Below are positions 2,141-64,000 of a stretch of DNA of 64,000 nucleotides, in pieces. Under the pieces are notes generated by a model, which saw nothing but the letters and a program-made list of their open reading frames with translations, was not told the origin of the DNA and ran no database searches. The position numbers and the translations under genes were made by a program. Position 1 is the stretch's first letter; each line of letters starts with the position of its first letter. This DNA is from Octopus vulgaris (taxonomy: Eukaryota): the NCBI GenBank assembly GCA_951406725.2, contig OX597814.1, positions 32,116,001 through 32,180,000 of the forward strand, in the 5' to 3' direction.

Positions 2141-2456
2141 GTATATGTATATGTATATATATTTATATATACCAATAATAAAAGGGTAAAATCAATGAAT
2201 TATTAATTAATTTCACCAAGTAGTGTTCAGTATGTAAAAGGACCATTCAAGGTATATTCAAAATATAACGTTATATAATTAGGGCTCAGTAAAATAATTT
2301 ACTTTACCACATACTGAGACTTTTAGAAATAGCAGCCAAAAAGTTTTTAGCCATTTCTTCTACTATAAGAAATATCTCCCAGATAGTGTTTACTCAAAAA
2401 TAATTCACGTAGATATGGAGGGAAAAACAACAAAATATCACATGTACAAAGATCAT

Positions 2457-2518
2457 TTGAGAACGTTACGTTTCTGGATTAGTTGAACTTAAACTCAACA
2501 TTTCCTTCGTCAGCTCAA
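2457..2518 (-). ncRNA. Type I hammerhead ribozyme motif
   Basis: Minus strand: ttgag CTGACGA a gga aat gttga..tcaac taa tcc a GAAA cg taa cg TT ctcaa. Stems I-III and core intact, GUU cleavage triplet. Confidence 0.8.
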
Positions 2519-3047
2519 CATTTCTGAATTTGGATTTGAAAGCACTAAAAATTGAACATACCCGTCTGATATGAGTAATCTCAGACAAACCATCTCCAAA
2601 CTGCCAGTGCCAACAAATTCAAAAAGTACGAGTGAAGACTTGTATTCCTCCCGCTTCCATCCACGTGAGTTATAGAGTAAACAAATTTTGGCGGTGAGAA
2701 CCGTAGTAAAAAGCAGGGAGGGATGCATTTGGATTATCAATAATAAAAGGGTAAAATCAATTAATTATTAATTAATTTCACCAAGTAGTGTTCAGTATGT
2801 AAAAGGACCATTCAAGGTATATTCAAAATATTACGTTATATAATTTGGGCTCAGTAAAATAATTTACGGTTCTCACCGCCAAAATTTGTTTACTCTATAA
2901 CTCACGTGGATGGAAGCGGGAGGAATACAAGTTCTCACTCGTACTTTTTGAATTTGTTGGCACTGGCAGTTTGGAGATGGTTTGTCTGAGATTACTCCAG
3001 ACGGGTATTTTCAATTTTTAGTGTTTTCAAATCCAAATTAAGAAATG

Positions 3048-3109
3048 TTGAGCTGACGAAAGAAATGTCGAGTTTTAATTCGACTAATCCAGAAACGTAA
3101 CGTTCTCAA
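3048..3109 (+). ncRNA. Type I hammerhead ribozyme motif
   Basis: ttgag CTGACGA ..gtcga..tcgac.. GAAA cg taa cg TT ctcaa; inverted copy of 2457-2518. Confidence 0.8.
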
Positions 3110-3387
3110 ATGATCTTTGTACATGTGATATTTTGCTTTTTTTCCCTCCATATCTACGTGAATTATTTTTGAGTAAATACTATCTGGGAGATTTTTCTTA
3201 TAGTAGAAGAAATGGCTAAAAACACTTTTTGGCTGCTATTTCTAAAAGTTTCAGTATGTGGTAAAGTAAATTATTTTACTGAGCCCTAATTATATAACGT
3301 TATATTTATATATATATATATATGTATATGCATATATGTGTGTGTGTATGTGTATGTGTCTATATTCTTTGTTCTTTTATACTGTTT

Positions 3388-4494: not shown

Positions 4495-4574
<80 letters not shown>

Positions 4575-4578
<4 letters not shown>

Positions 4579-4733
4579 CGCCATGCCTACCCCCAAAAAA
4601 GTCCCCCACCACCACCCATTTAAACCTGCCTAAATGTATAAATGCCAAAACAACTCTTGTCTACTAGCTTCCTGATGATTTCTTTTGAATGAAACAGTTC
4701 TAGTCCTGTAGAAGCTCCTTCTATATAATAAAT
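4575..4733 (+). mobile_element. Solo PLE pLTR 3' fragment, same family as the ends of the giant palindrome
   Basis: Similar to ~29968-30126, ends at the same ctatataataaat, flanked by (TA)n. Confidence 0.85.
4666..4716 (+). ncRNA. Minimal type I hammerhead ribozyme
   Basis: agcttc CTGATGA t ttc tttt gaa t GAAA cag ttctagtc ctg TA gaagct; 6-bp stem I, GUA site. Confidence 0.85.
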
Positions 4734-4743
4734 AAATAAATAT

Positions 4744-8447: not shown

Positions 8448-8848
8448 TTCATTCTTTTATTCTTTTACTTGTTTCAGTCATTTGACTGCGGCCATGCTGG
8501 AGCACCGCCTTTAATCGAGCAAATCGACCCCGGGACTTATTCTTTTGTAAGCCCAGTACTTATTCTATCGGTATCTTTTGCCGAACCGCTAAGTAACGGG
8601 GACATAAACACACCAGCATCGGTTGTCAAGCAATACTAGGGGGACAAACACAGACACACAAACACACACACATATATATATATACATATATACGACGGGC
8701 TTCTTTCAGTTTCCGTCTACCAAATCCAGTCACAAGGCATTGGTCGGCCCGAGGCTATAGCAGAAGACACTTGCCCAAGATGCCATGCAGTGGGACTGAC
8801 CCCGGAACCATATGGTTGGTAAGCAAGCTACTTACCACATAGCCACTC
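8447..8848 (-). mobile_element. SINE family A, full length
   Basis: tttcagtcatttgactgcggccatgctggagcaccgcc ... cagtgggactga..accacatagccactc. Confidence 0.95.
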
Positions 8849-10439: not shown

Positions 10440-11160
10440 CGCAACATGTCGTGTATGTCAACAACAAAATGAAACCATTGATCATGTCTCCAAGTGCAGT
10501 CTTCTTGCGTCTACAGAGTATCTCAACAGGTATGGTAGAGCTGCACAATATATTCAATTTGCAAAAGCCTGGACTTGCCCAAGGATAAAAACTGGTGGGA
10601 ACACAAACCACCTCCAGTGCTTGAAAAAGATCACATCTCACTCCTCTGGAACTTCACCCAGACATCATGTTGAAAGACTTCAAACAAAAATCATACCTCC
10701 TCATTGATATGACTGTCCCAATTGATATAAACTTATCTGTCAAGACCTACCAAACACTGAGCAAGTATAAAGATCTTGAAATAGAAATTGGCAAAATGTG
10801 GAACCTGAAGACTAAAACAGTAACTGTTGTCATAGGTGTCCTAGGAATGATAGCAAAAAGGGATGATTGCTACCTAGCTCAGATACCAGGAAACCCCTTA
10901 AGGGCAGAAATTCAAAAGATAGTGCTCATGGGGACTGCCCATATCCTACGCAAAATACTTTCTATGTAATCTCAAGTTTTGAAATAAACATAATTTTCTT
11001 ATGGTTTCTTAAACACTCTCTAGAACAACACTATGTACAAAACTAAATATATGGCACCCTAGGCATAACACCAACATGAACTTCCAACTTGTTGTCTCTT
11101 GAGGTCTCTGGGTGAGACTTGGAATCAACTTCTGCAAATGTAAAGCAAAAGTCAAACATA
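10440..11160 (+). mobile_element. R4/Dong-clade non-LTR retrotransposon 3' end (zinc knuckle, restriction-like endonuclease, 3' UTR), frameshifted
   Basis: CRVCQQQNETIDHVSKC; PD..LLIDMTVPID..KYKDLEIEI..W..VVIGVLG..IQKIVLMGTAHILRKIL; followed by a (TAA/TGA)n tail. Confidence 0.9.
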
Positions 11161-11599: not shown

Positions 11600-11919
11600 A
11601 ATAAAATCAAATGCAAATTTAATAAAATCAAGACACGTACCGCCAACAAGATGGCGGTACGTGTCTTGAAAAAGAGTTGGAAAAATACAAAACCACCCCT
11701 CCCACAAATATGGCAACGGTTGAAGATTTCCCTCCCATTCCCTCAATTACTAGCAGCAACAGAAAGAAAAGGGAGGAGGAGGAGGAGGAGGAGGAGGAGG
11801 AGGAGGAAAACAAAAGTTTCACGATACAAACTCCACCTAAGAGTAACAACAGTAGTAGCAGAAACAGCAACAGCGGTAGCAACAAGAACAGCAGCAGCCG
11901 CAACAGTGACGACAGCCGC

Positions 11920-11950
<31 letters not shown>

Positions 11951-13790
11951 ACATCAACAACAACCACGAAAAAGAGAGTAGCTGCAGCAGCAGTAGCGAT
12001 AGCAACAACAACAACAACAACAGCGTGAGCAATCGGGACAACAGCAGCAACAGCCGTTCAAGAATTTGGACCTGGAGATCTCCATTTCCAGCGACTTCGA
12101 GGACCACCTCCCAGTGGTGTCGGGCGTCAACGAAGAGCCCTCGACTACAACAAGACGGTCAAAGTTTTTTTTTTTTCCAAGGTCTGGGGTCTCCCGTCCC
12201 TAAGCCCTAGACCACCACCTAATCACCCTTACCCGTCTTGTTGCTTAACAACAACAACAACAACAGCAGCAACAGCAGCAACAACAAAGCCAATACCAAC
12301 AACATCGACAAGAACAATGACAACAACAACAGCGGCAGCAACAGCAGTAGCAACAATAACAACAACAACGACAGCAGAACCAATGACAAACGTTAGTTCG
12401 CAACAGCAGCAGCGAAGAGCAAACAGCGCATTACCCTGGATCTCAGAAATAGGGACCAGATGCTAACATAAGGATGGAAATTAAGAGAACAACAGAAAAC
12501 TTGAGCTAATCTAGTTGTTACGTTAGAGGCAAATGAAGCAGTGGAAAGAAGAACAGTGCTTTTCATAAATATCTCAACGGACACGAAAAGAGCGGCTTTA
12601 AAAGCCCAAGTGGATATTGAGGCCAAGCTGAGGTGCATCAGAAATGACATTGAATACATAGCGAGAGGCAAATACTGCGGCACCATTTCGGTGCTGCTTA
12701 AGTCAGAAGCCCTCACTATGAAACATACATTCAATGACCCCTTGCAAAACAAGAAAGGTCATTACGTACCCCTCCCACATGAGGAAACGTTCAACTCGTG
12801 TATATATTCCTAGAATCCAAACCAGAACTAGACTTTGGTGGATTCTGGGATGTGTAATCGTGGAGGAGATGGATATTGTCCCGATAGAGGCGACAAGAAA
12901 TGCCAGGGAGAAATGGTCCAGGGATTGATATGGAGATACTTCGCCAGATCAGACCCGAAAACAAAAAGAATTCCACACAACATCCGTCTCCAAAACGGGA
13001 TGGGGATACACATCATAACTGACGGTAAAAGGCCGCATTGTTTCGAGCTTACTACTACCAGCTGGTACAAAGTGCAAGGGGTCAAAGGTTTCTACTACTG
13101 CCTACGCCGGGATCGGAACCACAGAAAATACCAGCACCGGCAAAACCACCAGCAAGAACACCAAAGACATTAACCATCCTAGGGGGAAATAAGGAAAGCT
13201 CTCCTGCCTCTCTCACATCAAACAAAAATACATATATAAAGAGGATTATAAACATACACTCCACACAGACACAGACACACAGCAACAGACGCTTCATCTT
13301 CCAATAGTGAAGATGAAGGAAAACCAAAAGGTCCAAGAAAAAATTTTTAAAGCTGAAAGCAGAAACGAACAACTCCACAAAGCATAACAATACTCAGAAT
13401 AAAAAATACAAACACTAGTCACGCAAACATCTCCCCCAAAACACCAACACCCAACAAAACCACCACTATCTCACTATCACCAGAATCCACCGAACGCAAA
13501 CAACCTAAATAAAGAAGAACAAAAAATTCACACTAATATCTAAAACTTTCACCACATTCACAGCATACTCAGACACAACAGAAGCAAAAACAAGACTATC
13601 GTGATCACAGTCAAGCAAACAAATTAAACAAGACCAAAGCACAAAACAAAAACCAACCAACTTCGTACTCATCAGAAGGAACAACAAGGAACTGATGGCC
13701 CTCGTAACGCAAAACACGGAATTTAAGAACAACAGAAAGAGGGACCACATGTTCTTGGTTGTCAAGATGATATTCGAACAGTGTTGCTCC
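11600..13790 (+). mobile_element. Decayed L1/Tx1-like ORF1 region with microsatellite expansions
   Basis: Broken frames: IEYIARGKYCGTISVLLKSE; RKRSTRVYIPRI; IPHNIRLQNGMGIHIITDGKRPHCF resembles the lead-in to a Tx1 ORF1 zinc knuckle. A-rich sense strand. Boundaries approximate. Confidence 0.5.
11628..11669. repeat. Perfect 18-bp hairpin with 6-nt loop
   Basis: tcaagacacgtaccgcca acaaga tggcggtacgtgtcttga. Confidence 0.97.
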
Positions 13791-15942: not shown

Positions 15943-16100
15943 ACACATATGGAATTAATATCTGCACACTCTCCATTTCTAATAACAAAATATGAACTCC
16001 TATCGGAATTTACATATCATGGACATGAAATCACTTTACACATTCTACATACCACATTCCTTGGATAATGGTACTGCAACTGTAACATCGCACATATATA

Positions 16101-16500
16101 TTCTTTACTATTTTACTTGTTTCAGTCATTTGACTGCGGCCATGCTGGAGCACCGCCTTTTAATCGAGCAAATCGACCCCGGGACTTATTCTTTTGTAAG
16201 CCCAGTACTTATTCTATCGGTCTATTTTGCCGAACCGCTAAGTAACGGGGACATAAACACACCAGCATCGGTTGTCAAGCAATGCTAGGGGGACAAACAC
16301 AGACACACAAACACACGCACGCATATATATATGTACATATATACGACGGGCTTCTTTCAGTTTCCGTCTATCAAATCCACTCACAAGGCTTTGGTCGGCC
16401 CGAGGCTATAGTAGAAGACACTTGCCCAAGGTGCCACGCAGTGGGACTGAACCCGGAACCATGTGGTTGGTAAACAAGCTACTTACCACACAGCCACTCC
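16101..16500 (-). mobile_element. SINE family A, full length
   Basis: Near-identical to 8447-8848. Confidence 0.95.
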
Positions 16501-17858: not shown

Positions 17859-18825
17859 CATATTTTATGACATTTTTATGCATATGTATATATATATATA
17901 TATAATACTATATTTACAAATATATAATTATACATGTATAGTTATCATCCTTGTACCACATGAGATATATATATATATAGACGCATACATGAACATATAT
18001 TCATACATATAAATCTTCATATTAATGCGTGTGTCAGTGCGTTTAAATTAAATTAGAACCCTACACATTGCACGTTTTATGCATTTTATATCATTGAGCA
18101 CACATAATTGATTGTATACCTTTTGCAACAGATATTTCGTTACGTATCAATTTGCCATTTTCAAGGCTCAAATTATTAATATATCCCAATAGGCATTTTT
18201 ATATCGAAATAGGACTTTAAAAACTGTACACAATTTAACATGGAAGACGAGTGATATATATTTTGAAAGATTCTACGACGTACCTTCTTGTATTATTTTA
18301 TGTTGTTTTTCAAATATGAAATTCTGTTTAGTGAGGTGAGTGTAAATTTGAAGCACATAACTACGGGTACCAAAGCTAGATGAAATTGTCACTCTAATGA
18401 AAAAAGTGTCGCTGGCCAAAGCATAGTTATCGAATCTCTAGTTGAGGGTATGTCATGAGTAATTTACCCAGTGAGCTTATGAAGTACATCTAATTTTGCC
18501 TAAAGATTATTAGTGTTTTGTTTTTCTTTCAAATTTTGCGATGTGTATTGTTATGGAGAATTAAAAGGTGTTAGCTGCATACAATATGATAGTGGTTAGT
18601 AAACATAAAAGTTTACAAATAAGTTGACTATACGTTCTAGTAACTTCAAGTATATACAAATTATTTTGCGTATATGATTAAAGATCCAGCAAGAAATTTG
18701 ACTAACACAAACATTCCAGTTTCATCCCATTAGGAAAAAGATTATTGAGTTACTTTTTTCACGACCTTTCTATTCGTTCTGATACCTTATGCAGAGCATC
18801 CTTATTTACAAATACAAATACATAC

Positions 18826-19214
18826 TCTTACTCTTTACTCCTTTACTTGTTTCAGTCATTTGACTGCGGCCATGCTGGAGCACTGCCTTTAGTCGAGCAA
18901 CTCGACCCCGGTACTTATTCTTTTTGTAAGCCCAGTACTTATTATATCGTTCTCTTTTTGCCGAACCGCTAAGTGACGGGGACGTCAACACACCAGCATC
19001 GGTTGTCAAGCAATGCTAGGGGAACAAACACAGACACACAAACACACACAAATACACACACACATATATATATCTACCAAATCCACTCACAAGGCATTGG
19101 TCGGCCCGGGGCTATAGCAGAAGACACTTGCCCAAGATGCCACGCAGTGGGACTGAACCCGGAACGATGTGGTTGGTTAGCAAGCTGCTTACCACACAGC
19201 CACTCCTGCGCCTA
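18826..19214 (-). mobile_element. SINE family A, full length
   Basis: Same body; (tactctt)n tail. Confidence 0.95.
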
Positions 19215-19539
19215 TATGATATATTTCCGACATCTTTCTTTTATCTATCTTCTTCCCATGCCTTTACAGCTGTACTTTCTAAATCATGAACGTTCGTATA
19301 ATTCTTAGTTTAATAATTTTAGTTAACCCACTAAATCTAAGTTTTCCTTAATATGTTAAGTTTAAGTTTTCCTTAACATCTTAAGCAACCATATTAAGTT
19401 TTCCTTAACATGGTTGCTTCTGTTTGCACATCTACTCAAAAGCGTTTTGGCTTTTACATCACCTCAGCTCACTTACTTCATTCAGAAACTACCATAATCT
19501 TTTTTCCACTACTATGTTTATTTGTTTCTTTCACCGTTT

Positions 19540-23303: not shown

Positions 23304-23411
23304 ACATATATATATATATATATATGTAGGTCCCGGGTTGATTCGGGGTTAACCACAGTAAGTAAGGTACTCAATACATAGCAGAGTAAAATTAATTTAT
23401 TATATAGAAGG

Positions 23412-23462
23412 AGCTTCTACAGGACTAGTACTGTTTCATTCAAGAGAAATCTTCAGGAAGCT
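23412..23462 (-). ncRNA. Minimal type I hammerhead ribozyme
   Basis: Reverse complement of 30059-30109. Confidence 0.85.
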
Positions 23463-23839
23463 ATTTAACAAGAATTGTATTAGCATTTATACATTTAGGC
23501 AGGTTTAAAGGAGTGGTGGTGGGGGACTTTTTGGGGGTAGGCATAGCGCAAAATATCATACTTGGGGGAGTGGTCAAGGAGTCAGTGGTAAGTTAGATGA
23601 AAGAATAGATAAATAAAAAATAAAAAAAAAAATAATAAAAAAAAAAAAAAAAAAAAAAATAAAAATATATATAAAAAAAATATATATAAAAATATATATA
23701 TAAAAATATATATATATATAAAAAAGGGGGGATAGAGTTATAGGTAAATAAGGAGATTCTCACTTATACCTATACACACATGTATACGTATCTACACACA
23801 CATACATACATACACATATATATACACACACATATACAT

Positions 23840-23884
<45 letters not shown>

Positions 23885-25298
23885 CACACATACATACATA
23901 TCTACATACACACATACATACACCCGCCCACATATACAAATTTATACACATGCACATGCCTATACCTGTCTACACATACACACACGTATATATGCATACA
24001 CTCACTCCCATGCATGCACGCATACACACATGTATATATATATATATACCCACGACCACACATACATATATACACATAAAAATATATATTCATACGCACA
24101 TACACTCATGCACACACAACACACCTAGTTCCCTATATACACATATTTACACCTATATATACATACACCCACATACACCTATGTACACATATATATATAT
24201 AAACATATACACGCATACATATATATACATGTGTGCACATACATACATACACACATATATACATACACATACACATACACATGTGTACCTATACATACCT
24301 ACACATACACACATACATACATACAAATATACATATACATATATATATATACAATCCAATACAGGCCCATTCCCTAATTTTAATTTTATTATCTTCATTT
24401 ATTACTTTTGTTATCTTTGATCGCTAGAGCTAAGAATCCTGGCAATGGCTGCATGTCCATTTGTCTGTCTACTAGAAGGCAAGTACTCATTCCCGCACGC
24501 ACACTCATTAGCACGTACATTCACCCATTCGTACACTCATACACATACATGTACGCACGCGTTATATTCATACATACAAACATCTACATACGTTCACGTA
24601 TATACACATACGTACTCGTACCTACAGATTCGTGTCTACACTTTAGGAGGCTAGTCTATACATATACACCAATAAATATACATATATATATATATACCCG
24701 CATATACATACACACACACACATATATACTCCTACATACAGATACATACCTATATATATATATATACACACACATATATATATACATATATATATATATA
24801 CATACACATACATACACATACACACATACATATACACACACATACATACACATATATATACATACACAAACATATATACACACATATATATACATACACA
24901 CATACACACATACATACGTATACATACATACATACATCCATACATCCATACTTACATGCATTTATACGCATACACACACCCATCTATATATATGTATATA
25001 TATATATATATATATACACACTCACACATACATATACAAATCTACGCACACACATACATACATACACGTATACGCATACACGCACATACACATATACATG
25101 CGTACCCATACACGTGCACACACGCACGCGCATCCATATATATACACACACACACATATATATACACGTGTGCAAGCATACATACATACTCATACGCGCA
25201 CACATACTTACATATACATATATGCACACACTTACACACATATATATACATACACATATACATGCATACATACATATATGCATACATACACACACGCA

Positions 25299-25352
<54 letters not shown>

Positions 25353-25387
25353 TATACATATATACACATACATATACATACACACAT

Positions 25388-25436
<49 letters not shown>

Positions 25437-25642
25437 TACATATATACACATATACATACATATACATACACACACACATACATATATACATATACACTGA
25501 TACACATACCCATACATACACATGCATATACTTATATCACTATTATACTCACATATATAAACATATATACATATACACACATACATATATACATGTACAT
25601 ACACATACGTATGCATATATATATATATACATATATATACAC

Positions 25643-25681
<39 letters not shown>

Positions 25682-25935
25682 TACATATACACAAATACAT
25701 GTATACATACGCAAAAATGATACACATATATATACACATACACACACACAGACAGATGCATATACATACATATATATATATAAACTACATATCTATATAA
25801 ATACATACATAATACACATATACACACACATATATATACATTCATGCATATACATATACAAGTATACATACACATACATACACACACACACGCACACACA
25901 TACATATACACACACACATATACAAATACATACAT

Positions 25936-25966
<31 letters not shown>

Positions 25967-26000
25967 CATACATGTACACATATACATATGTATATATATA

Positions 26001-26222
26001 TCAACAAGGGAGGGTAAAGTTAATTAGTTATTAATCAATTTCATCAAGTGTTCAGTATGTAAAGGGACCATTATTATTTTGAGTAAACAATGTTAGAGGG
26101 AAAAAAATTCTCTAAGTAGTGGAAGAGGCTAAAAAACTTTATTGGCTGCTATTTCTAGAAAGTTTAGTATGTGGCAAAGTAATTTATTTTATTTTCTAAG
26201 CCCTAATTATATAATATTTTAT
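26001..26222. mobile_element. Mini element of the 2173-3307 family nested in the left palindrome arm (mirror at ~27293-27516)
   Basis: agggtaaa..caagtgttcagtatgtaaagggaccatt joined to ttttgagtaaa..ttggctgctatttcta..ccctaattatataa. Confidence 0.75.
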
Positions 26223-26334
26223 ACATACATACACATACATAAGCACATACATTTACACATACATATGCATATACATATATACACATATACATACAAACAC
26301 ATATACACATATACACACACACACACATACAAGC

Positions 26335-26381
<47 letters not shown>

Positions 26382-26610
26382 AATATATATACATATATAT
26401 TTTTACATGCATACATACACACACACACACATAATACATGCGTATATTCCTACTGTACCCATGCATTTCTATACATATATACATACATACGATACACATA
26501 TACAAGCGTGCACATATAATATGTGAAAGGTCTTAGGAGAAAAGGTAATCGGGGGTGCTAGGGGAACAGTGGGGTTGGGGGGGGTTGTAGGGGGGTTGTG
26601 GGGGTTGTCA

Positions 26611-26766
26611 TCAATCAGGTTGCCGGGTAGGTCTATAGTTCTTGTAGTTCGCATACTTCTTATGCATGCAATTTGGGGAGTGTTCTGAAAATTTGTTAAG
26701 GAGAGGGCCTTTGGCGAACAAGATCTCTAGGCTCTCTGATATGCATAGGTCACAGCAGGTATGTCC
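26611..26766 (-). pseudogene. C-terminal fragment of a PLE GIY-YIG endonuclease (Naiad-like)
   Basis: Hand translation GHTCCDLCISESLEILFAKGPLLNKFSEHSPNCMHKKYANYKNYRPTRQPD* fits the GxxxCxLCxxE..I..LLNKxSE...CxH pattern I recall from Naiad-type PLE C-termini. Not in the ORF track. Confidence 0.7.
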
Positions 26767-27136
26767 TATGCATATCAGAGAGCCTAGAGATCTTGTTCGC
26801 CAAAGGCCCTCTCCTTAACAAATTTTCAGAACACTCCCCAAATTGCATGCATAAGAAGTATGCGAACTACAAGAACTATAGACCTACCCGGCAACCTGAT
26901 TGATGACAACCCCCCTACAACCCCCCTACAACCCCCCCAACCCCACTGTTCCCCTAGCACCCCCGATTACCTTTTCTCCTAACACCTTTCACATATTATA
27001 TGTGCACGCTTGTATATGTGTATCGTATGTATGTATATATGTATAGAAATGCATGGGTACAGTAGGAATATACGCATGTATTATGTGTGTGTGTGTGTGT
27101 ATGCATGCATGTAAAAAATATATATGTATATATATT

Positions 27137-27181
<45 letters not shown>

Positions 27182-27550
27182 GCTTGTATGTGTGTGTGTG
27201 TGTATATGTGTATATGTGTTTGTATGTATATGTGTATATATGTATATGCATATGTATGTGTAAATGTATGTGCTTATGTATGTGTATGTATGTATAAAAT
27301 ATTATATAATTAGGGCTTAGGAAAATAAAATAAATTACTTTGCCACATACTAAACTTTCTAGAAATAGCAGCCAATAAAGTTTTTTAGCCTCTTCCACTA
27401 CTTAGAGAATTTTTTTCCCTCTAACATTGTTTACTCAAAATAACAATGGTCCCTTTACATACTGAACACTTGATGAAATTGATTAATAACTAATTAACTT
27501 TACCCTCCCTTGTTGATATATATATACATATGTATATGTGTACATGTATG

Positions 27551-27581
<31 letters not shown>

Positions 27582-28184
27582 ATGTGTGTATGTATGTATT
27601 TGTATATGTGTGTGTGTATATGTATGTGTGCGCGTGTGTGTGTGTATGTATGTGTATGTATACTTGTATATGTATATGCATGAATGTATATATATGTGTG
27701 TGTATATGTGTATTATGTATGTATTTATATAGATATGTAGTTTATATATATATATGTATGTATATGCATCTGTCTGTGTGTGTGTATGTGTATATATATG
27801 TGTATCATTTTTGCGTATGTATACATGTATTTGTGTATAGGTATGTGTGTGTGTGTGTGTTATATATATATATATATATGTGTATATATATGTATATATA
27901 TATATATGCATACGTATGTGTATGTACATGTATATATGTATGTGTGTATATGTATATATGTTTATATATGTGAGTATGTAGTGATATAAGTATATGCATG
28001 TGTATGTATGGGTATGTGTATCAGTGTATATGTATATATGTATGTGTGTGTGTATGTATATGTATGTATATGTGTATATATGTATGTGTATATGTGTATA
28101 TATATATATATATGTATATGTGTGTATATGTGTGTATGTATGTGTATGTGTATGTATGTGTATATATGTATATATATGTATATA

Positions 28185-28224
<40 letters not shown>

Positions 28225-28716
28225 TGCGTGTGTGTATGTATGCATATATGTATGTATGCATGTATATGTGTATGTATATATATGTGTGTAAGTGTGTGCA
28301 TATATGTATATGTAAGTATGTGTGCGCGTATGAGTATGTATGTATGCTTGCACACGTGTATATATATGTGTGTGTGTGTATATATATGGATGCGCGTGCG
28401 TGTGTGCACGTGTATGGGTACGCATGTATATGTGTATGTGCGTGTATGCGTATACGTGTATGTATGTATGTGTGTGCGTAGATTTGTATATGTATGTGTG
28501 AGTGTGTATATATATATATATATATATACATATATATAGATGGGTGTGTGTATGCGTATAAATGCATGTAAGTATGGATGTATGGATGTATGTATGTATG
28601 TATACGTATGTATGTGTGTATGTGTGTATGTATATATATATGTGTGTATATATGTTTGTGTATGTATATATATGTGTATGTATGTGTGTGTATATGTATG
28701 TGTGTATGTGTATGTG

Positions 28717-28774
<58 letters not shown>

Positions 28775-29642
28775 TATGTATCTGTATGTAGGAGTATATA
28801 TGTGTGTGTGTGTATGTATATGCGGGTATATATATATATATATGTATATTTATTGGTGTATATGTATAGACTAGCCTCCTAAAGTGTAGACACGAATCTG
28901 TAGGTACGAGTACGTATGTGTATATACGTGAACGTATGTAGATGTTTGTATGTATGAATATAACGCGTGCGTACATGTATGTGTATGAGTGTACGAATGG
29001 GTGAATGTACGTGCTAATGAGTGTGCGTGCGGGAATGAGTACTTGCCTTCTAGTAGACAGACAAATGGACATGCAGCCATTGCCAGGATTCTTAGCTCTA
29101 GCGATCAAAGATAACAAAAGTAATAAATGAAGATAATAAAATTAAAATTAGGGAATGGGCCTGTATTGGATTGTATATATATATATGTATATGTATATTT
29201 GTATGTATGTATGTGTGTATGTGTAGGTATGTATAGGTACACATGTGTATGTGTATGTGTATGTATATATGTGTGTATGTATGTATGTGCACACATGTAT
29301 ATATATGTATGCGTGTATATGTTTATATATATATATGTGTACATAGGTGTATGTGGGTGTATGTATATATAGGTGTAAATATGTGTATATAGGGAACTAG
29401 GTGTGTTGTGTGTGCATGAGTGTATGTGCGTATGAATATATATTTTTATGTGTATATATGTATGTGTGGTCGTGGGTATATATATATATATATACATGTG
29501 TGTATGCGTGCATGCATGGGAGTGAGTGTATGCATATATACGTGTGTGTATGTGTAGACAGGTATAGGCATGTGCATGTGTATAAATTTGTATATGTGGG
29601 CGGGTGTATGTATGTGTGTATGTAGATATGTATGTATGTGTG

Positions 29643-29684
<42 letters not shown>

Positions 29685-30058
29685 TATGTATATGTGTGTG
29701 TATATATATGTGTATGTATGTATGTGTGTGTAGATACGTATACATGTGTGTATAGGTATAAGTGAGAATCTCCTTATTTACCTATAACTCTATCCCCCTT
29801 TTTTTATATATATATATATTTTTTTATATATATATTTTTATATATATTTTTTTATATATATTTTTTATTTTTTTATTTTTTTATTTTTTTATTTTTTTAT
29901 TTTTTTATTTATCTATTCTTTCATCTAACTTACCACTGACTCCTTGACCACTCCCCCAAGTATGATATTTTGCGCTATGCCTACCCCCAAAAAGTCCCCC
30001 ACCACCACTCCTTTAAACCTGCCTAAATGTATAAATGCTAATACAATTCTTGTTAAAT

Positions 30059-30109
30059 AGCTTCCTGAAGATTTCTCTTGAATGAAACAGTACTAGTCCT
30101 GTAGAAGCT
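30059..30109 (+). ncRNA. Minimal type I hammerhead ribozyme
   Basis: agcttc CTGAAGA t ttc tctt gaa t GAAA cag tactagtc ctg TA gaagct. Confidence 0.85.
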
Positions 30110-30180
30110 CCTTCTATATAATAAATATATATATATATATATATATATTGGCCTGCTAGCTTAGCCAGGTTTGGCATAGT

Positions 30181-31115
30181 GTGAATGAAGGATTTGGGTT
30201 TTATTATTCATACTATGCCAAACCTATGGCCTCAAAATACTTGATCCATCGGAACTCAGCCATTGCGGACAATGCCAAATTCAATATTTTGATGGCGGAC
30301 CTCGTCAGAATAATGAGAAATGTGTCACGCATGTGCGAGCCCAAAGAGTTAAAGAGACACATACAATATTTCATTCACCGCATGCAGTTCTCTGGTTACA
30401 GCCATAAAGAAAGGATCAGAGTATACAAAGGAGCCATGAAGAAATTTGATAATATATTATGTAATGATAGGAATGGCATTTGCCCACTCTATAGGAACAA
30501 GTCATGGAACACTATAGAAAGGACAAAAAGAAAATAGGGAAGGCCAACTCTTGGTATGATAGCCATAAATACCAGAGTGTCATGTTCGTTGACACCACCC
30601 CTGGTGGTGAACTGGCGTACCGCTTTAGAAGGACCCTAGACAAACTTAAGCTAAGAATTAAGGTTGTTGAAAAGCCAGGCAACCCTATCAAATCTATAAT
30701 CGGTAGAACCTATCCTTTTAGTAGAACCCCCTGTACGGATAAGTACTGTACTGTATGTAGATTTAGCCCACAAACAAACTGTAAAGCCAGAAATGTAGTC
30801 TATAGTATAAGATGTATAGAGGGACGATGCAGTAACAAGACAACGACATACGTAGGGGAGACGGCAAGAAGCATAGGAGAGCGGGTAAATGTACATTGGA
30901 GACAACTCAAGGAAGGTAAAAGCTCATCGATTCTGTACCAACACGCTGAACAGGAACACAGGGGATCAATCAACAATATAGAAATTAAAATATTGTCCAC
31001 ACATAGAACAGATGCAACAATCAGACAAATTACAGAAGCTACACACATAATAGGAAATAAACCTAGCCTGAATAGAAAACTAGAATGGAACACTAGCACA
31101 CACCACTACATATGA
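30181..31115 (+). pseudogene. Penelope-like element ORF fragment: RT thumb, Cys-rich linker and GIY-YIG endonuclease (Neptune/Nematis-like), frameshift near 30530
   Basis: YAKPMAS..HRNSA..LVRIMRN..RMQFSGY..PLYR; CTDKYCTVC..NC; VVYSIRC..C..YVGETARSIGER..H..LYQHAEQEH..RQITEA..LNRKLEW. Confidence 0.9.
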
Positions 31116-31685
31116 CGATAGAGGATCCCGAACACATAATAAATACACAGATAAATAAACAAATAGAAATAAATAACTATATATATATATTTTTCGATTC
31201 GATTTATTGTTATAATTATTACTAGTATTGTTGTTATACATACATACATACAAGCATATGTAATGATAATAATAAGTGGATGTAAACACATTAACAAAAT
31301 AAGAATAAACAAAAACAACAACAAAAACAAAATACAAATTACATGAACGTATATAAACAGAAGATACAAATATTACAGGCATCCCCCACATACACACACT
31401 AAATAAACATAGACGCACATAGAGATATAAGCATGCACAAATGAAGACATACAATAGAAATACAAAATGGCTGACGGTTAGTAAGGAGAGACACAAATAA
31501 GAAAGAAGAAAACAAAGGACCAATGATGCGGTCACAGGAGTGTGACGAAAGAACTCTGGCCGAAATAAGATTAAGATTAATGTAAAAAATAAATAACACT
31601 GAAGCAAAATAACACCAAATATATAGTGCATGTGTTTTTATTGGCTAAACTGGCAAAATGACCATTCCGAAATATAACAACGAAT
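31116..31685 (+). mobile_element. 3' UTR/pLTR of the 30181-31115 PLE
   Basis: Follows the EN stop codon, ends in (TA)n, contains an HHR-like motif; homologous copy at ~50530-50710 on the minus strand. Confidence 0.65.
31517..31561 (+). ncRNA. Variant or degenerate minimal hammerhead-like motif
   Basis: ggacca aTGATGc g gtcaca ggag tgtgac GAAA g aa c TC tggcc. Perfect 6-bp stem II, but C3->A and A9->C. Confidence 0.45.
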
Positions 31686-35447: not shown

Positions 35448-35848
35448 AGGCGCAGGAGTGGCTGTGTGGTAAGAAGCTTGCTAACCAACCACATGGTTCC
35501 GGGTTCAGTCCCACTGCGTGGCATCTTGGGCAAGTGTCTTCTGCTATAGACCGGGGCTGACCAATGCCTTGTGAGTGGATTTGGTAGACGGAAACTGAAA
35601 GAATCCTGTCGTATATATGTATATATATATATATATATATAAGTGTGTGTGTATATGTTTGTGTGTCTGTGTTTGTCCCCCTAGCATTGCTTTACAACCG
35701 ATGCTGGTGTGTTTACGTCCCCGTCACTTAGCGGTTCGGCAAAAGAGACCGATAGAATTTACAAAGAATAAGTCCCGGGGTCGATTTGCTCGACTAAAGG
35801 CGGTGCTCCAGCATGGCCGCAGTCAAATGACTGAAACAAGTAAAAAAG
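35448..35848 (+). mobile_element. SINE family A, full length (tRNA-derived head, internal TA/TG microsatellite)
   Basis: A-box-like tggctgtgtggt, B-box-like ggttcagtcc, A-rich tail. Confidence 0.95.
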
Positions 35849-36138
35849 GGAAAAAGGTATATAATTTATTAGCTACACTTCCAACATTTCATGGATATTT
35901 TGTTGATTTTATTCGTAAGCACCGACGAATAGAACTGGTGTATCAAGTGACTTCAGCAAAAGGCGCCCAAGCACCAACAGATCAAAAATCTATTAAAGTT
36001 TTAAACTATATTATCTTGACGTATTGGCGTTTACTGAAGTCTACAGCACTTTTAACAACAAATCCATGTTAAACTGGATGCTCAAATTGATATTCGTTAC
36101 AAAGGCAGCTTCCCTGCGTAATAGTTAAATTATACATA

Positions 36139-41799: not shown

Positions 41800-42019
41800 T
41801 ATGCGCTCCGTGAAAGCAGTCACCTAAAAGTTTTTGTGAATCTTGAAGTTGACATAAATTCCTTGTTTTTCCTGATGAGAAAGCGGCATAATGTACTCCT
41901 TATTCCTTCACAATTAGGAATATGCAGCCTTCGAAACATATGTCGAAAATAAAGGAAATTTGTTAATTTGTCGTTCAACTCCATTCTTTCATTTATTCAT
42001 AAATTTTATTTAAAAAAAA

Positions 42020-42080
<61 letters not shown>

Positions 42081-43621
42081 TGAGAGAGAGAGAGAGAGAG
42101 AGAGAGTTCCTTTTTGGTAACTCGAAACGGATAAAACTATAAATAACGGGTAAATATTAGGTAAGCGAACTCTATAGAGAGGAAAAGTCAATGCATTAAC
42201 TTATATCTGTCCCTGTTTATACCAACAAAGAAAATGTAGTCATTGCTTAAATCAATAACAAAATTTAGGTCATTATTTTAATTGAAATTGAATGCACTCT
42301 ATGAATTCTTTACTATTCACAGAGACCCGTTAAAAAAAGGTACCGATCTAATTGATACGCCCATAGGTTTATATTATAAGATTGGGTAATGTGAGCTTAT
42401 GGAATTATATGTTTCAGGTTCTATCCGAAGGACATTCAACCACACAGACGTCAGTGTACATAGAGATGGCGGCCTCAAAATTTTTCACTATGTGACCAGT
42501 CAACCTTTAGACATGCTCAGAGAATTTTTCAATAATGTTCTGAACGAATTCACTTTTAGTATTACAATAACAATCAAACTCAATGTGTTCAATAGATACA
42601 TGCTTTCCACTTTTTAATAATTTTTACAGCTACATCTCTGTACAGTATACCACTCAATACCATCTACCAATAGCAAAAATGAGACGGAAGTGTACTATTA
42701 TCAGTTTGTAACAACAACTTTATCCTATAGTTAACTTCCTCTCTCTCAACCTTTTTTAAAAAAAACTTATGCAGAATGTTATAAATTCTAAATGTTAGCT
42801 GCAGCAATATTATCAGTAACAGGAAGTATATTTTTAGTATCTACAAAAGAAATAAGAATAATTATTGTAACAGTATTCCATCAATAATCATCCCAGTGCT
42901 ATTGCCCCATAAGTAGCATTATTAATTACTGAAGGGCAAGGGCCATTACACTTGCAGATTCTGTGAGGCCAGTTATGTTGATATTGGTAAAATTTCGTTT
43001 ATGCATTTGCGGGTAAATATTCAAGCGGTCAACATCCTACAGGGAAATGACGGGGAATAATGGCTGCTGCAATGCCAGGGTATATTCGATGCAACAACAG
43101 CGATGAGAAGTAAAGAGGTGAGTGTATAGTGAGAGCCTACGTGGTGGAAGTATGCGATCATCTAGCTTGGAGAATCATGAGCTACTAGTGTGGACATACA
43201 GAAGGCAGAGAGAGGTGACAGCATGACAATGGTAAGTGGCTAACGTGTATCATTCAGTGACTGAATGCCAAGTAGTCGAGCGGCTTTCTACCAAATACGG
43301 TGTAGAATGCCAAGTAGTCGAGCGGCTTTCTACCGAATACGGTGTAGAATGCCTGTGTTTGCTGTAACAACGCCATGTCATATTTTGGTGCCATACTCCA
43401 ATTTGGATTTAAATTGAAACATTTAGTTTACCAGGAACTGTGAAGAGTGCAAAGAACCTACGTTGCTGAAACACCTCGTGCTTTTGGAGTGACTGTTAGG
43501 GTTCTTCCTGAGTGGTGTGCTGCGCTGATGTTTTCTTGATATTAGTAATTCTTGATCGTTTCCTGTTAAAAAAGGAGTCCAAGACGACACTGAGGAATCT
43601 TCTGAATTGTATTTATAAGCA
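41800..43621 (+). repeat. Local duplication, inserted copy of 51346-53243
   Basis: Near-identical sequence (identical ORFs 42399+ and 51923+), lacks 53006-53102, flanked by 42-bp direct repeats. Confidence 0.95.
43263..43353. repeat. 42-bp tandem repeat, ~2.2 copies (also at ~52788-52878)
   Basis: gaatgccaagtagtcgagcggctttctacc(a/g)aatacggtgta twice. Confidence 0.95.
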
Positions 43622-43909
43622 GGGTAGAACCATAGTGGAAAACATATTCCAATTTCTATATTTGTGCTGCTAAGGGCTTGTCATTCACTAACACAATATT
43701 TTTTTTTATGTTTAATATATCATAAATCAACAGAGCTAAGATAAAGGAAAATACTATAGACCGCCAGTTTGGATTGAAATATAAGTACTGAAATATAAGT
43801 AACATATAATCTTTCAGTGAAACTATTTCTGAGTTTTTAGCTCCTCATAAGAGGAGGGAATACGAATTTGGCTTCCTTCTCCACTTCATAGCATATGTTT
43901 TTTGTTTTT

Positions 43910-44298
43910 TTTTACTTGTTTCAGTCATTTTGACTGCGGCCATACTGGAGCACCGCTTTTAATCGAGCAACTCGACCCCGGGACTTATTCTTTGTAAGCC
44001 CAGTACTTATTCTATCGGGCTCTTTTGCCGAACCGCTAAGTGATGAGGACATAAACACACCAGCATCGGTTGTCAAGCAATGCTAGGGGGACACACACAA
44101 ACATACACGCACATACATATATATACATATATACGACGGGCTTCTTTCAGTTTCCGTCTACCAAATCCACTCACAAGGCTTTGGTCGGCCCGAGGCTATA
44201 GTAGAAGACACTTGCCCAAGATGCCACGCAGTGGGACTGAACCCGGGACCATGTGGTTGGTAAACAAGCTACTTACCACACAGCCACTCCTGCGCCTA
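43910..44298 (-). mobile_element. SINE family A, full length
   Basis: Same consensus. Confidence 0.95.
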
Positions 44299-51345: not shown

Positions 51346-51564
51346 TATGCGCTCCGTGAAAGCAGTCACCTAAAAGTTTTTGTGAATCTTGAAGTTGACA
51401 TAAATTCCTTGTTTTTCCTGATGAGAAAGCGGCATAATGTACTCCTTATTCCTTCACAATTAGGAATATGCAGCCTTCGAAACACATGTCGAAAATAAAG
51501 GAAATTTGTTAATTTGTCGTTCAACTCCATTCTTTCATTTATTCATAAATTTTATTAAAAAAAA

Positions 51565-51607
<43 letters not shown>

Positions 51608-53243
51608 TAGAGAGAGAGAGAGAGAGAGAGTTCCTTTTTGGTAACTCGAAACGGATAAAACTATAAATAACGGGTAAATATTAGGTAAGCGAACTCTATA
51701 GAGAGGAAAAGTCAATGCATTAACTTATATCTGTCCCTGTTTATACCAACAAAGAAAATGTAGTCATTGCTTAAATCAATAACAAAATTTAGGTCATTAT
51801 TTTAATTGAAATTGAATGCACTCTATGAATTCTTTACTATTCACAGAGACCCGTTAAAAAAAGGTACCGATCTAATTGATACGCCCATAGGCTTATATTA
51901 TAGGATTGGGTAATGTGAGCTTATGGAATTATATGTTTCAGGTTCTATCCGAAGGACATTCAACCACACAGACGTCAGTGTACATAGAGATGGCGGCCTC
52001 AAAATTTTTCACTATGTGACCAGTCAACCTTTAGACATGCTCAGAGAATTTTTCAATAATGTTCTGAACGAATTCACTTTTAGTATTACAATAACAATCA
52101 AACTCAATGTGTTCAATAGATACATGCTTTCCACTTTTTAATAATTTTTACAGCTACATCTCTGTACAGTATACCACTCAATACCATCTACCAATAGCAA
52201 AAATGAGACGGAAGTGTACTATTATCAGTTTGTAACAACAACTTTATCCTATAGTTAACTTCCTCTCTCTCAACCTTTTTTTAAAAAAAACTTATGCAGA
52301 ATGTTATAAATTCTAAATGTTAGCTGCAGCAATATTATCAGTAACAGGAAGTATATTTTTAGTATCTACAAAAGAAATAAGAATAATTATTGTAACAGTA
52401 TTCCATCAATAATCATCCCAGTGCTATTGCCCCATAAGTAGCATTATTAATTACTGAAGGGCAAGGGCCATTACACTTGCAGATTCTGTGAGGCCAGTTA
52501 TGTTGATATTGGTAAAATTTCGTTTATGCATTTGCGGGTAAATATTCAAGCGGTCAACATCCTACAGGGAAATGACGGGGAATAATGGCTGCTGCAATGC
52601 CAGGGTATATTCGATGCAACAACAGCGATGAGAAGTAAAGAGGTGAGTGTATAGTGAGAGCCTACGTGGTGGAAGTATGCGATCATCTAGCTTGGAGAAT
52701 CATGAGCTACTAGTGTGGACATACAGAAGGCAGAGAGAGGTGACAGCATGACAATGGTAAGTGGCTAACGTGTATCATTCAGTGACTGAATGCCAAGTAG
52801 TCGAGCGGCTTTCTACCAAATACGGTGTAGAATGCCAAGTAGTCGAGCGGCTTTCTACCGAATACGGTGTAGAATGCCTGTGTTTGCTGTAACAACGCCA
52901 TGTCATATTTTGGTGCCATACTCCAATTTGGATCTAAATTGAAACATTTAGTTTACCAGGAACTGTGAAGAGTGCAAAGAACCTACGTTGCTGAAACACC
53001 TCGTGGCTTTAAACAGGAGTTATCTTTGGGGAAGCAGTTCCATTTCAGCTAAAAATGTGGTTTCACCTGCAGACAGAAACTATGAGTAATACTGAAACCA
53101 AGCTTTTGGAGTGACTGTTAGGGTTCTTCCTGAGTGGTGTGCTGCGCTGATGTTTTCTTGATATTAGTAATTCTTGATCGTTTCCTGTTAAAAAAGGAGT
53201 CCAAGACGACACTGAGGAATCTTCTGAATTGTATTTATAAGCA
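51346..53243 (+). repeat. Local duplication, probable donor copy
   Basis: Continuous with its flanks and retains the 97 bp missing from the other copy. Confidence 0.9.
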
Positions 53244-53866: not shown

Positions 53867-54271
53867 ACTCTTTACTCTTTTACTCTTTTACTTGTTTCAG
53901 TCATTTGACTGCGGCCATGCTGGAGCACCGCCTTTAGTCGAGCAACTCGACCCCGGGACTTATTCTTTTTGTAAGCCCAGTACTTATTCTATCGTCCTCT
54001 TTTTGCCGAACCGCTAGGTGACGGGGACGTAAACACACCAGCATCGGTTGTCATGCAATGCTAGGGGAACAAACACAGACACACAAACACACACACACAT
54101 ATATATACAACAGGCTTCTTTCAGTTTCCGTCCACCAAATCCACTCACAAGGCATTGGTCGGCCCGGAGCTATAGCAGAAGACACTTGCCCAAGATGCCA
54201 CGCAGTGGGACTGAACCCGGAACCATGTGATTGGTTAGCAAGCTACTTAACACACAGCCACTCCTGCGCCT
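53867..54271 (-). mobile_element. SINE family A, full length
   Basis: Same consensus. Confidence 0.95.
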
Positions 54272-63515: not shown

Positions 63516-63920
63516 AAGGAGTGGCTGTGTGGTAAGTAGCTTGCTTACCAACCACATGGTTCCGGGTTCAGTCCCACTGCGTGGCATCTTGGGCAAGTGT
63601 CTTCTGCTATAGCCTCGGGCCGACCAATGCCTTGTGAGTGGATTTGGTAGACGGAAACTGAAAGAAGCCTGTCGGATATATGTATATATATATGTATGTG
63701 TGTGTATGTTTGTGTGTCTGTGTTTGTCCCCTTAGCATTGCTTGACAACCGATGCTGGTGTGTTTATGTCCCCGTCACTTAGCGGTTCGGCAAAAAGAGA
63801 CCGATAGAATAAGTACTGGGCTTACAAAAAGAATAAGTCCCGGAGTAGAGCTGCTCGATTAAAGGCGGTGCTCCAGCATGGCCGCAGTCAAATGACTGAA
63901 ACATGTAAAAAAAAAAAAAA
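63516..63920 (+). mobile_element. SINE family A, full length
   Basis: Same consensus with poly(A) tail. Confidence 0.95.
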
Positions 63921-64000
63921 AGGTCGTTTCGATCCCTCCTGCTACTGTCCATTACGGGTGGGACTCCGTTCAACATGTGTTGTATCTATTTTTCAGTCTG

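What the first reader, a model, noticed from the sequence alone, without database searches (positions are those of the whole stretch)
26611..26903. Endonuclease motif reads through the palindrome spacer on one strand only, giving polarity and priming site
Seen: the minus strand gives GHTCCDLCISESLEILFAKGPLLNKFSEHSPNCMHKKY, keeping GxxxCxLC, while the plus strand gives HSRYVLCISE.. and loses the first Cys. The spacer is itself a quasi-hairpin (tagg tcaca gcagg tatgt ccta). Inference: the left arm is the original 5'-truncated cDNA and the right arm arose by fold-back self-priming at this imperfect hairpin. The peptide resembles Naiad-clade PLE C-termini from memory; I ran no search.
Basis: partly seen in the sequence, partly recalled or inferred. 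Interest (0 to 1): 0.7.

Follow-up and report, generated by a model that had tools for sequence, protein, structure and literature searches.

The report
Head-to-head Hydra-clade Penelope insertion
A 6.8-kb mirror-image repeat in an animal genome is two cut-down copies of a Penelope-like jumping gene joined head to head; the left copy runs on through the joint, and the two arms were likely made as two separate DNA copies, each predicted to start beside one of a pair of small RNA hairpins that related elements conserve.

Summary
Observation and polarity hold. The minus strand keeps the conserved CxLC, and in 4 of 4 public runs family contigs follow the left arm through the spacer to 26767, then leave the window in frame. 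The natural stem is 3 bp, not 4, and folds at about 0 kcal/mol. The peptide matches Hydra-clade, not Naiad, endonuclease ends. The unit is a 6.8-kb head-to-head insertion in (TA)n with hammerhead motifs and a one-sided 69-nt tail: published Penelope-like architecture. Fold-back is possible but less likely than two separately primed cDNAs. The right arm ends where a solo copy ends, 8 nt before a bulged hairpin. That hairpin is in 54 of 90 related loci, covaries, often comes as a pair 54-83 nt apart, and 12 of 15 copy ends lie 2-6 nt before one. In 2 of 5 related head-to-head pairs each arm holds sequence the other lacks, which fold-back cannot make. No contig crossed this junction. Ordinary insertion; the twin hairpins are the new lead.

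The parts
23395..26767 (-). Left arm: 5'-truncated Hydra-clade Penelope-like copy, colinear with the family through the spacer
26765..30126 (+). Right arm: inverted copy, about 18 nt shorter at the junction and without the tail
26611..26766 (-). Last 51 codons and stop of the GIY-YIG endonuclease (CxLCxxE...LNK..E....CxH)
26768..26903 (+). Mirror of the ORF end, lacking the first Cys of CxLC
26750..26764 (-). Spacer: natural element sequence present once; 4 of 7 positions self-complementary
26747..26767 (.). Junction with 3-bp microhomology (26747-49 with 26765-67); 7 of 10 outer positions pair
23326..23394 (-). 69-nt tail, on the left arm only
23367..23386 (-). Bulged hairpin (CTC-stem-loop-stem-2 nt-GAGYAC) starting 9 nt into the tail, 70 nt after the hammerhead core; the only hit in the window
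23412..23462 (-). Type I hammerhead motif, left arm (activity untested)
   Evidence: mirror of the right-arm motif folded
30059..30109 (+). Type I hammerhead motif, right arm (activity untested)
   Evidence: no Rfam hit at gathering score
23463..26610 (-). 3.1-kb 3' UTR swollen by microsatellites; includes a nested piece (about 26000-26210) of a second element; mirrored in the right arm
23306..23325 (.). (TA)n at the tail end; target site
30127..30148 (.). (TA)n at the tailless end; target site
4571..4737 (+). Solo short copy of the family's 3' end (91% identity), ending at the same base as the right arm, between (TA)n runs

Best explanation
This is a head-to-head pair of 5'-truncated Hydra-clade Penelope-like copies in a (TA)n tract, whose arms were likely made as two separately primed cDNAs, one predicted to start before each of two tandem hairpins in the RNA, and likely joined at a 3-bp microhomology. 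Shown: element identity, polarity, tail on one arm, 3-bp overlap, hairpin conservation and end positions in relatives. Inferred: the protein nicks both strands of (TA)n; one reverse transcription starts about 8 nt before hairpin 1 (right arm, tailless) and one just before hairpin 2 (left arm, with the 69-nt tail); both stop near the same point of one donor RNA, 18-21 nt apart; their 3' ends pair through AGG/CCT, helped by the quasi-palindrome, and are extended on each other.
For: Right arm and the solo copy at 4571-4737 end at the same base, 8 nt before the hairpin, so that point can be a primary end. In relatives 12 of 15 de-duplicated copy ends lie 2-6 nt before a hairpin, mostly followed by TA-type repeats; tandem hairpins are 54-83 nt apart in 21 pairs, and the window's tail ends 61 nt after hairpin 1 starts. 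Of 5 related head-to-head pairs with one tail, the tail arm is longer at the joint in 3 (L036, L087, L082 6097-6313) and the tailless arm in 2 (L082 6786-7131, L088 8854-9540), where neither arm can be a copy of the other. PMC11167929: a Poseidon protein nicks and extends both target strands, starts at two internal sites whose interval is the tail, and is predicted to be a dimer. The proposed fold-back hairpin is not stable (-0.1 to +1.1 kcal/mol).
Against: In this copy the tail arm is the longer one and the offset is tiny, exactly what fold-back predicts; only 1 of the 5 related pairs has so small an offset (those loci were picked for long ORFs, which favours large offsets). Hairpin 2 is not in the window and was not seen for this family. 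The window's tailless end is 8 nt before the hairpin, slightly outside the 2-6 nt cluster (four related pairs give 6-7 nt). The window's hairpin is a variant (A before CTC, T in GAGTAC). The two decisive relatives are single assembled contigs in repeat-dense loci. No biochemistry exists for a Hydra protein in the papers I saw. No contig crossed this junction.
Confidence: 0.6

Rival explanations
1. Fold-back (snap-back): one cDNA started at the tail, stopped at 26767, paired its CCT end with AGG 21 nt back, and was extended along itself until it left the template 69 nt early and joined (TA)n.
For: Tail arm is the colinear, longer arm; offset only 18-21 nt; 3-bp terminal stems occur at 93 of 5995 junction pairs (1.6%) and 3 bp plus 7 of 10 paired at 13 of 4598; arms differ at only 4 of 1192 non-repeat columns. 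Snap-back of cDNA is reported for R2 (PMC11371274, passages); self-priming was proposed for Penelope palindromes (PMC3846280).
Against: Needs the copy to stop exactly where solo copies end. Cannot make 2 of 5 related pairs. Hairpin near 0 kcal/mol, and a competing stem with AGG 26757-59 is slightly better (-0.5 to -0.7). The microhomology serves both models equally.
Confidence: 0.3
2. Self-priming on an antisense RNA, or an extrachromosomal hairpin intermediate whose two ends are then trimmed by the endonuclease.
For: Proposed in PMC3846280; PMC8557442 ascribes the tail to endonuclease resolution. Trimming of either strand could also give the 2 reversed pairs.
Against: PMC11167929 maps both tail ends to reverse-transcription starts on sense RNA primed by target DNA; no antisense RNA evidence here.
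Confidence: 0.06
3. Assembly or library chimera, or a later DNA-repair duplication unrelated to transposition.
For: No contig in 4 runs crossed the junction; depth 0 at 26775-26800. No genome was held to check.
Against: The palindrome ends exactly at element ends with unrelated flanks, only one arm has the tail, arms differ by 18 substitutions, and the same layout recurs in relatives. Contigs drop rare variants, and the insertion may be absent from those individuals.
Confidence: 0.04

Closest known systems
Hydra clade of Penelope-like elements (Craig et al. 2021, PMC8557442)
   Same: C-terminal endonuclease end with CxxC and CxH around the conserved E and N, canonical-type hammerhead, (TA)n targets; Penelope-13_HM is listed with a 5'-truncated inverted copy.
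   Different: A family not matching the listed Hydra-1_Obim hammerhead or 3' end by eye; 3.1-kb 3' UTR against the usual under-3-kb whole element; twin tail hairpins are not mentioned in the parts of the paper I read.
Inverted pseudo-LTR insertions with a one-sided tail (Penelope, Pen2a_Av; PMC3846280, PMC8557442)
   Same: Adjacent inverted 5'-truncated copy, tail on one end only, short overlap at the joint.
   Different: Tail is 69 nt here (about 62-75 nt in related pairs, read) against 30-40 nt; no target duplication can be read in (TA)n.
Poseidon PAc of Anolis: two internal reverse-transcription starts (Frangieh et al. 2024, PMC11167929)
   Same: Two end positions separated by the tail, downstream of the hammerhead, near RNA stem-loop structure; A/T-rich targets.
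   Different: [quoted passage not shown] That paper does not explain inverted pairs in the text I read.
R2 cDNA snap-back (PMC11371274) and L1 twin priming / DSB self-annealing (10.1101/2024.12.14.628481)
   Same: Short-homology priming that yields inverted sequence at a retroelement 5' junction.
   Different: Here the whole 3.36-kb arm is duplicated and ends at an element-defined site.
Naiad clade
   Same: (TA)n targets, inverted copies, tails.
   Different: Naiad endonuclease is N-terminal and canonical hammerheads are lacking; both differ here.

Membership tests
Hydra-clade PLE | [quoted passage not shown] | tested here: met
   Peptide ends at a stop and aligns to the last 50 residues of relatives; 20 of 21 longer hits carry an upstream YRDD RT motif
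Hydra-clade PLE | [quoted passage not shown] | tested here: met
   C5, C8, E11, C33, H35 invariant in alignment A1; same pattern in Fig. S7 text
Hydra-clade PLE | Canonical hammerhead near the 3' end | tested here: met
   Core and three stems by pattern and fold; no Rfam gathering hit, fold z-score 0; cleavage untested
Hydra-clade PLE | Insertion into (TA)n | tested here: met
   Both ends in (TA)n
Hydra-clade PLE | RWK, DKT, CxCX5C linker, no CCHH, RT phylogeny | not testable with these tools
   The copy holds only 51 codons and no genome is held; relatives show CxCx5-9C in 19 of 21 and RW[KRH] in 7 of 21, many being partial
Hydra-clade PLE | Generally under 3 kb (descriptive, not defining) | tested here: inconclusive
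   This donor's 3' UTR alone is 3.1 kb, mostly microsatellite plus a nested piece; the family's usual length is unknown
Naiad-clade PLE | N-terminal endonuclease | tested here: not met
   Endonuclease end is followed by the stop, 3' UTR and hammerhead
Naiad-clade PLE | No canonical hammerhead | tested here: not met
   Motif present in both arms and the solo copy
PLE inverted insertion unit | Adjacent inverted 5'-truncated copy with tail on one end | tested here: met
PLE inverted insertion unit | Target-site duplication around the unit | tested here: inconclusive
   Only (TA)n on both sides; empty site unknown
Fold-back inverted duplication | Second arm wholly a copy of the first, primed at a terminal hairpin | tested here: inconclusive
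   Compatible in the window; hairpin near 0 kcal/mol; impossible in 2 of 5 related pairs

The most novel reading that the evidence does not exclude
Hydra-clade elements carry two tandem copies of one bulged RNA hairpin that each position a reverse transcriptase start a few bases upstream; a dimer primes both target strands, one per hairpin, and the clade's tails and head-to-head insertions are the direct product of joining those two cDNAs.
Probability: 0.5. Interest if true: 0.62.

Novelty: new member of a known kind. Interest (0 to 1): 0.42.

Why it matters
The insertion itself is ordinary debris of a known clade. It matters as a pointer: how Penelope-like elements form inverted, one-tailed insertions is called undefined in PMC8557442, and PMC11167929 found two internal start sites in one other clade. 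A short, covarying, twice-repeated hairpin with copy ends fixed 2-9 nt upstream gives a ready mutational test of that step, and pairs in which each arm has unique sequence argue from genomes that both ends are primed. It also warns that a palindromic junction with microhomology does not by itself show fold-back.

Tried and rejected
Own genome: none held, so no copy census or family consensus. Pfam: 0 families for the peptide; 1 of 4 short relatives gave a sub-threshold GIY-YIG hit. Word-index search with the single peptide: 0 hits among 19 candidates. phmmer gave 6 hits; 2 (P0002, the top hit, and P0005) are internally repeated proteins without the motif and were dropped. Rfam: 0 hits in the window; 3 sub-threshold hits in 4 loci, none on the hairpin. 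Exact 28-nt pattern: 0 matches in metagenome and genome contigs. Alignment A2 was too diverse for locus search; viral contigs were not searched again. No RNA holder was on record among 24 runs listed; X1 is only guessed to be RNA, so nothing is claimed on expression. No cover of 26775-26800 in 4 runs: not proof of absence. Contig depth was not used as copy number. Pair counts on A5 (100% paired) are circular because rows were chosen for pairing; the sequence-only test is the one relied on. C at 25 of 25 is by selection. Hammerhead and tail folds are not better than shuffles. The neighbour ORF at 30495-31112 is not the missing part of this element (E 0.71 to a Hydra protein). Earlier-finding look-ups by place, sequence and two word sets gave nothing.

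Full report
Observation. The given stretch is the centre of a palindrome centred on 26757. 26600-26749 pairs without mismatch with 26765-26914; in the spacer 26750-26764 three of seven pairs fail. The arms run 23395-26749 and 26765-30126; a local alignment gives 3338 identical columns, 19 substitutions and 24 gaps, one of them a 69-nt stretch (23326-23394) on the left arm only. A global alignment puts 4 substitutions in 1192 non-repeat columns and 14 in 2140 simple-repeat columns. Both ends lie in (TA)n with unrelated sequence beyond.

What the peptide is. phmmer returned 6 proteins at E up to 0.001; 4 are endonuclease C-termini with CxLCxxE...LNK..E....CxH (best E 1e-5) and 2 are unrelated repeat proteins that I dropped. 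Their profile found 21 proteins of 388-737 aa; 20 of 21 have a YRDD RT motif and 19 of 21 a CxCx5-9C linker upstream. PMC8557442 (main text parts 1-6 of 10; supplement parts 1, 2, 52, 53, 58 of 59 and one search) defines Hydra by a C-terminal endonuclease with CxxC and CxH around E and N, hammerheads and (TA)n targets, and Naiad by an N-terminal endonuclease without canonical hammerheads. A hammerhead core with three stems sits in both arms and in a solo copy at 4571-4737, though Rfam does not score it. So this is Hydra, not Naiad; RT-based features cannot be tested on 51 codons.

Polarity. Twenty of 24 listed runs hold part of the stretch. I laid 4 of them on 26500-26800. In all 4, contigs follow the left arm through the spacer to 26767 and go on with sequence not in the window (1, 3, 1, 10 contigs). 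Those letters translate in the peptide's frame to LLQKARSYT, matching the relatives' I-L-x-K/R-A-x-x-Y pattern at the right distance. The natural overlap is AGG/CCT, 3 bp. No contig crossed the window's junction (depth 0 at 26775-26800, no joints).

The proposed priming hairpin. Yet the joint is more complementary than chance: 93 of 5995 position pairs have a 3-bp terminal stem, 13 of 4598 also pair 7 of 10, and 68 of 1746 closing pairs fold as well; 99 of 298 positions have some 3-bp stem within 40 nt. So homology guided the joint, but two identical cDNAs annealing end to end use the same bases as one cDNA folding back (inference), so the junction cannot choose between them.

The outer ends. 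I fetched 78 loci from metagenome contigs (best 80 of 426 relatives kept) and 12 from genome contigs (the latter are probably animal DNA inside bacterial bins, inference); they form 72 clusters at 90%. A hammerhead pattern is in 64 of 90 (shuffles 0-4). A bulged hairpin CTC-stem-loop-stem-2 nt-GAGYAC is on the sense strand in 54 of 90 loci (42 of 72 clusters), on the other strand in 3, and in 0-1 per shuffle round; the window has exactly one, 9 nt into the tail. Chosen by sequence alone, 90 distinct instances in 60 loci pair at the two free stem positions in 71 and 63 of 90 against shuffled means of 41 and 36 (0 of 2000 shuffles; relatedness not removed). Hairpins come in tandem 54-83 nt apart in 21 pairs. 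One search gave 30 rows; 11 ended at a contig end and were dropped; the other 19 reduce to 15 events (L018, L059 and L068 counted once each), of which 12 end 2-6 nt before a hairpin and 3 do not (-9, +3, +24). In the window the right arm and the solo copy end 8 nt before hairpin 1, and the tail ends 61 nt after its start, where a second hairpin is expected but cannot be seen.

Related head-to-head pairs. Of 13 loci with inverted repeats plus two more inspected, five pairs had both ends and one tail readable. The tail arm is longer at the joint in L036 (1850 nt), L087 (771) and L082 6097-6313 (about 5-7); the tailless arm is longer in L082 6786-7131 (about 57) and L088 8854-9540 (about 520). 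In the last two each arm has sequence the other lacks, so neither was copied from the other. The remaining loci were cut by contig ends or too nested to score.

Mechanism. PMC11167929 (main text parts 1-3 of 4; five terms had 0 hits in its 3 text supplements) shows a Poseidon protein nicking and extending both target strands, with two internal starts that bound the tail. Together with the above, two primed cDNAs joined by microhomology is my best reading for this copy (0.6). Fold-back stays at 0.3 because the tail arm is longer and the offset only 18-21 nt; R2 snap-back (PMC11371274, passages) and Penelope self-priming (PMC3846280, passages and Discussion) are precedents; L1-associated inverted duplications with 2-bp homology are described in 10.1101/2024.12.14.628481 (passages). 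Near-identical arms across 3.1 kb of microsatellite point to one donor, probably one RNA (inference).

Novelty. The architecture is published and the element is a new family of a known clade. I did not find the twin hairpins in print: searches (listings only, apart from the papers named) showed no description; 'hairpin' has 0 occurrences in the main text of PMC8557442. Subscription papers and picture-only figures were not seen. 10.64898/2026.07.22.740005 (part 1 of 5) was background only. The host is an unidentified animal genome.

Noticed in passing
window 30149-31180 (+): A second, different Penelope-like remnant (RT thumb, linker cysteines, GIY-YIG; two frames; weak Pfam GIY-YIG E 0.0056) starts directly after the right arm's (TA)n. 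'Neptune-like' is my recalled label. It has a short inverted repeat near its 5' end (about 30167-30186 with 30206-30224), perhaps a small inversion.
   Followed up: partly
window 2170-3307: Another inverted unit of a second family: arms 2261-2705 and 2865-3307 (95%), hammerhead-like cores at 2471-2513 and 3053-3095, an extra stretch on the left arm only that recurs at about 2735-2867; no ORF seen.
   Followed up: partly
window 26000-26210 and mirror 27306-27517: A piece of that second family's end, itself partly inverted, is nested in the 3' UTR and was carried into both arms.
   Followed up: partly
window 26539 and 26685 (run X7): Loose ends suggest other inverted joints in family copies: after 26539 one contig continues with sequence identical to 29040-29065, with a 3-base overlap; after 26685 two contigs continue with a diverged mirror of 26645-26668.
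   Followed up: partly
window 26518: Long contigs of all four runs begin or end at 26518, hinting that many family copies have a different, perhaps shorter, 3' UTR beyond it.
   Followed up: no
window 41800-43484 and 51346-53010 (also 43480-43621 with 53102-53243): A 1.7-kb direct duplication at 98% identity about 9.5 kb apart.
   Followed up: no
window 8451-8848, 16100-16499, 18822-19215, 35454-35855, 43899-44291, 53878-54265, 63519-63921 and older copies: A dispersed repeat of about 400 bp with many copies at 70-95% identity, SINE-like by size.
   Followed up: no
window 10625-10966 and 11626-13170: Short coding remnants that look like pieces of other retroelements; identity not tested.
   Followed up: no
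Hydra consensi in File S7 of PMC8557442: By eye the same bulged hairpin is in Hydra-2_Amil and Hydra-2_Ajap after the hammerhead and at the 5' start of Hydra-1_Ajap.
   Followed up: partly
L079-L090: Twelve Hydra-type loci lie in contigs filed as bacterial metagenome-assembled genomes, probably animal DNA in the bins.
   Followed up: no
L012:711-762: A 52-nt inverted copy made almost only of tail sequence, ending 5 nt before the second hairpin in (TA)n, abuts a full-length element.
   Followed up: partly
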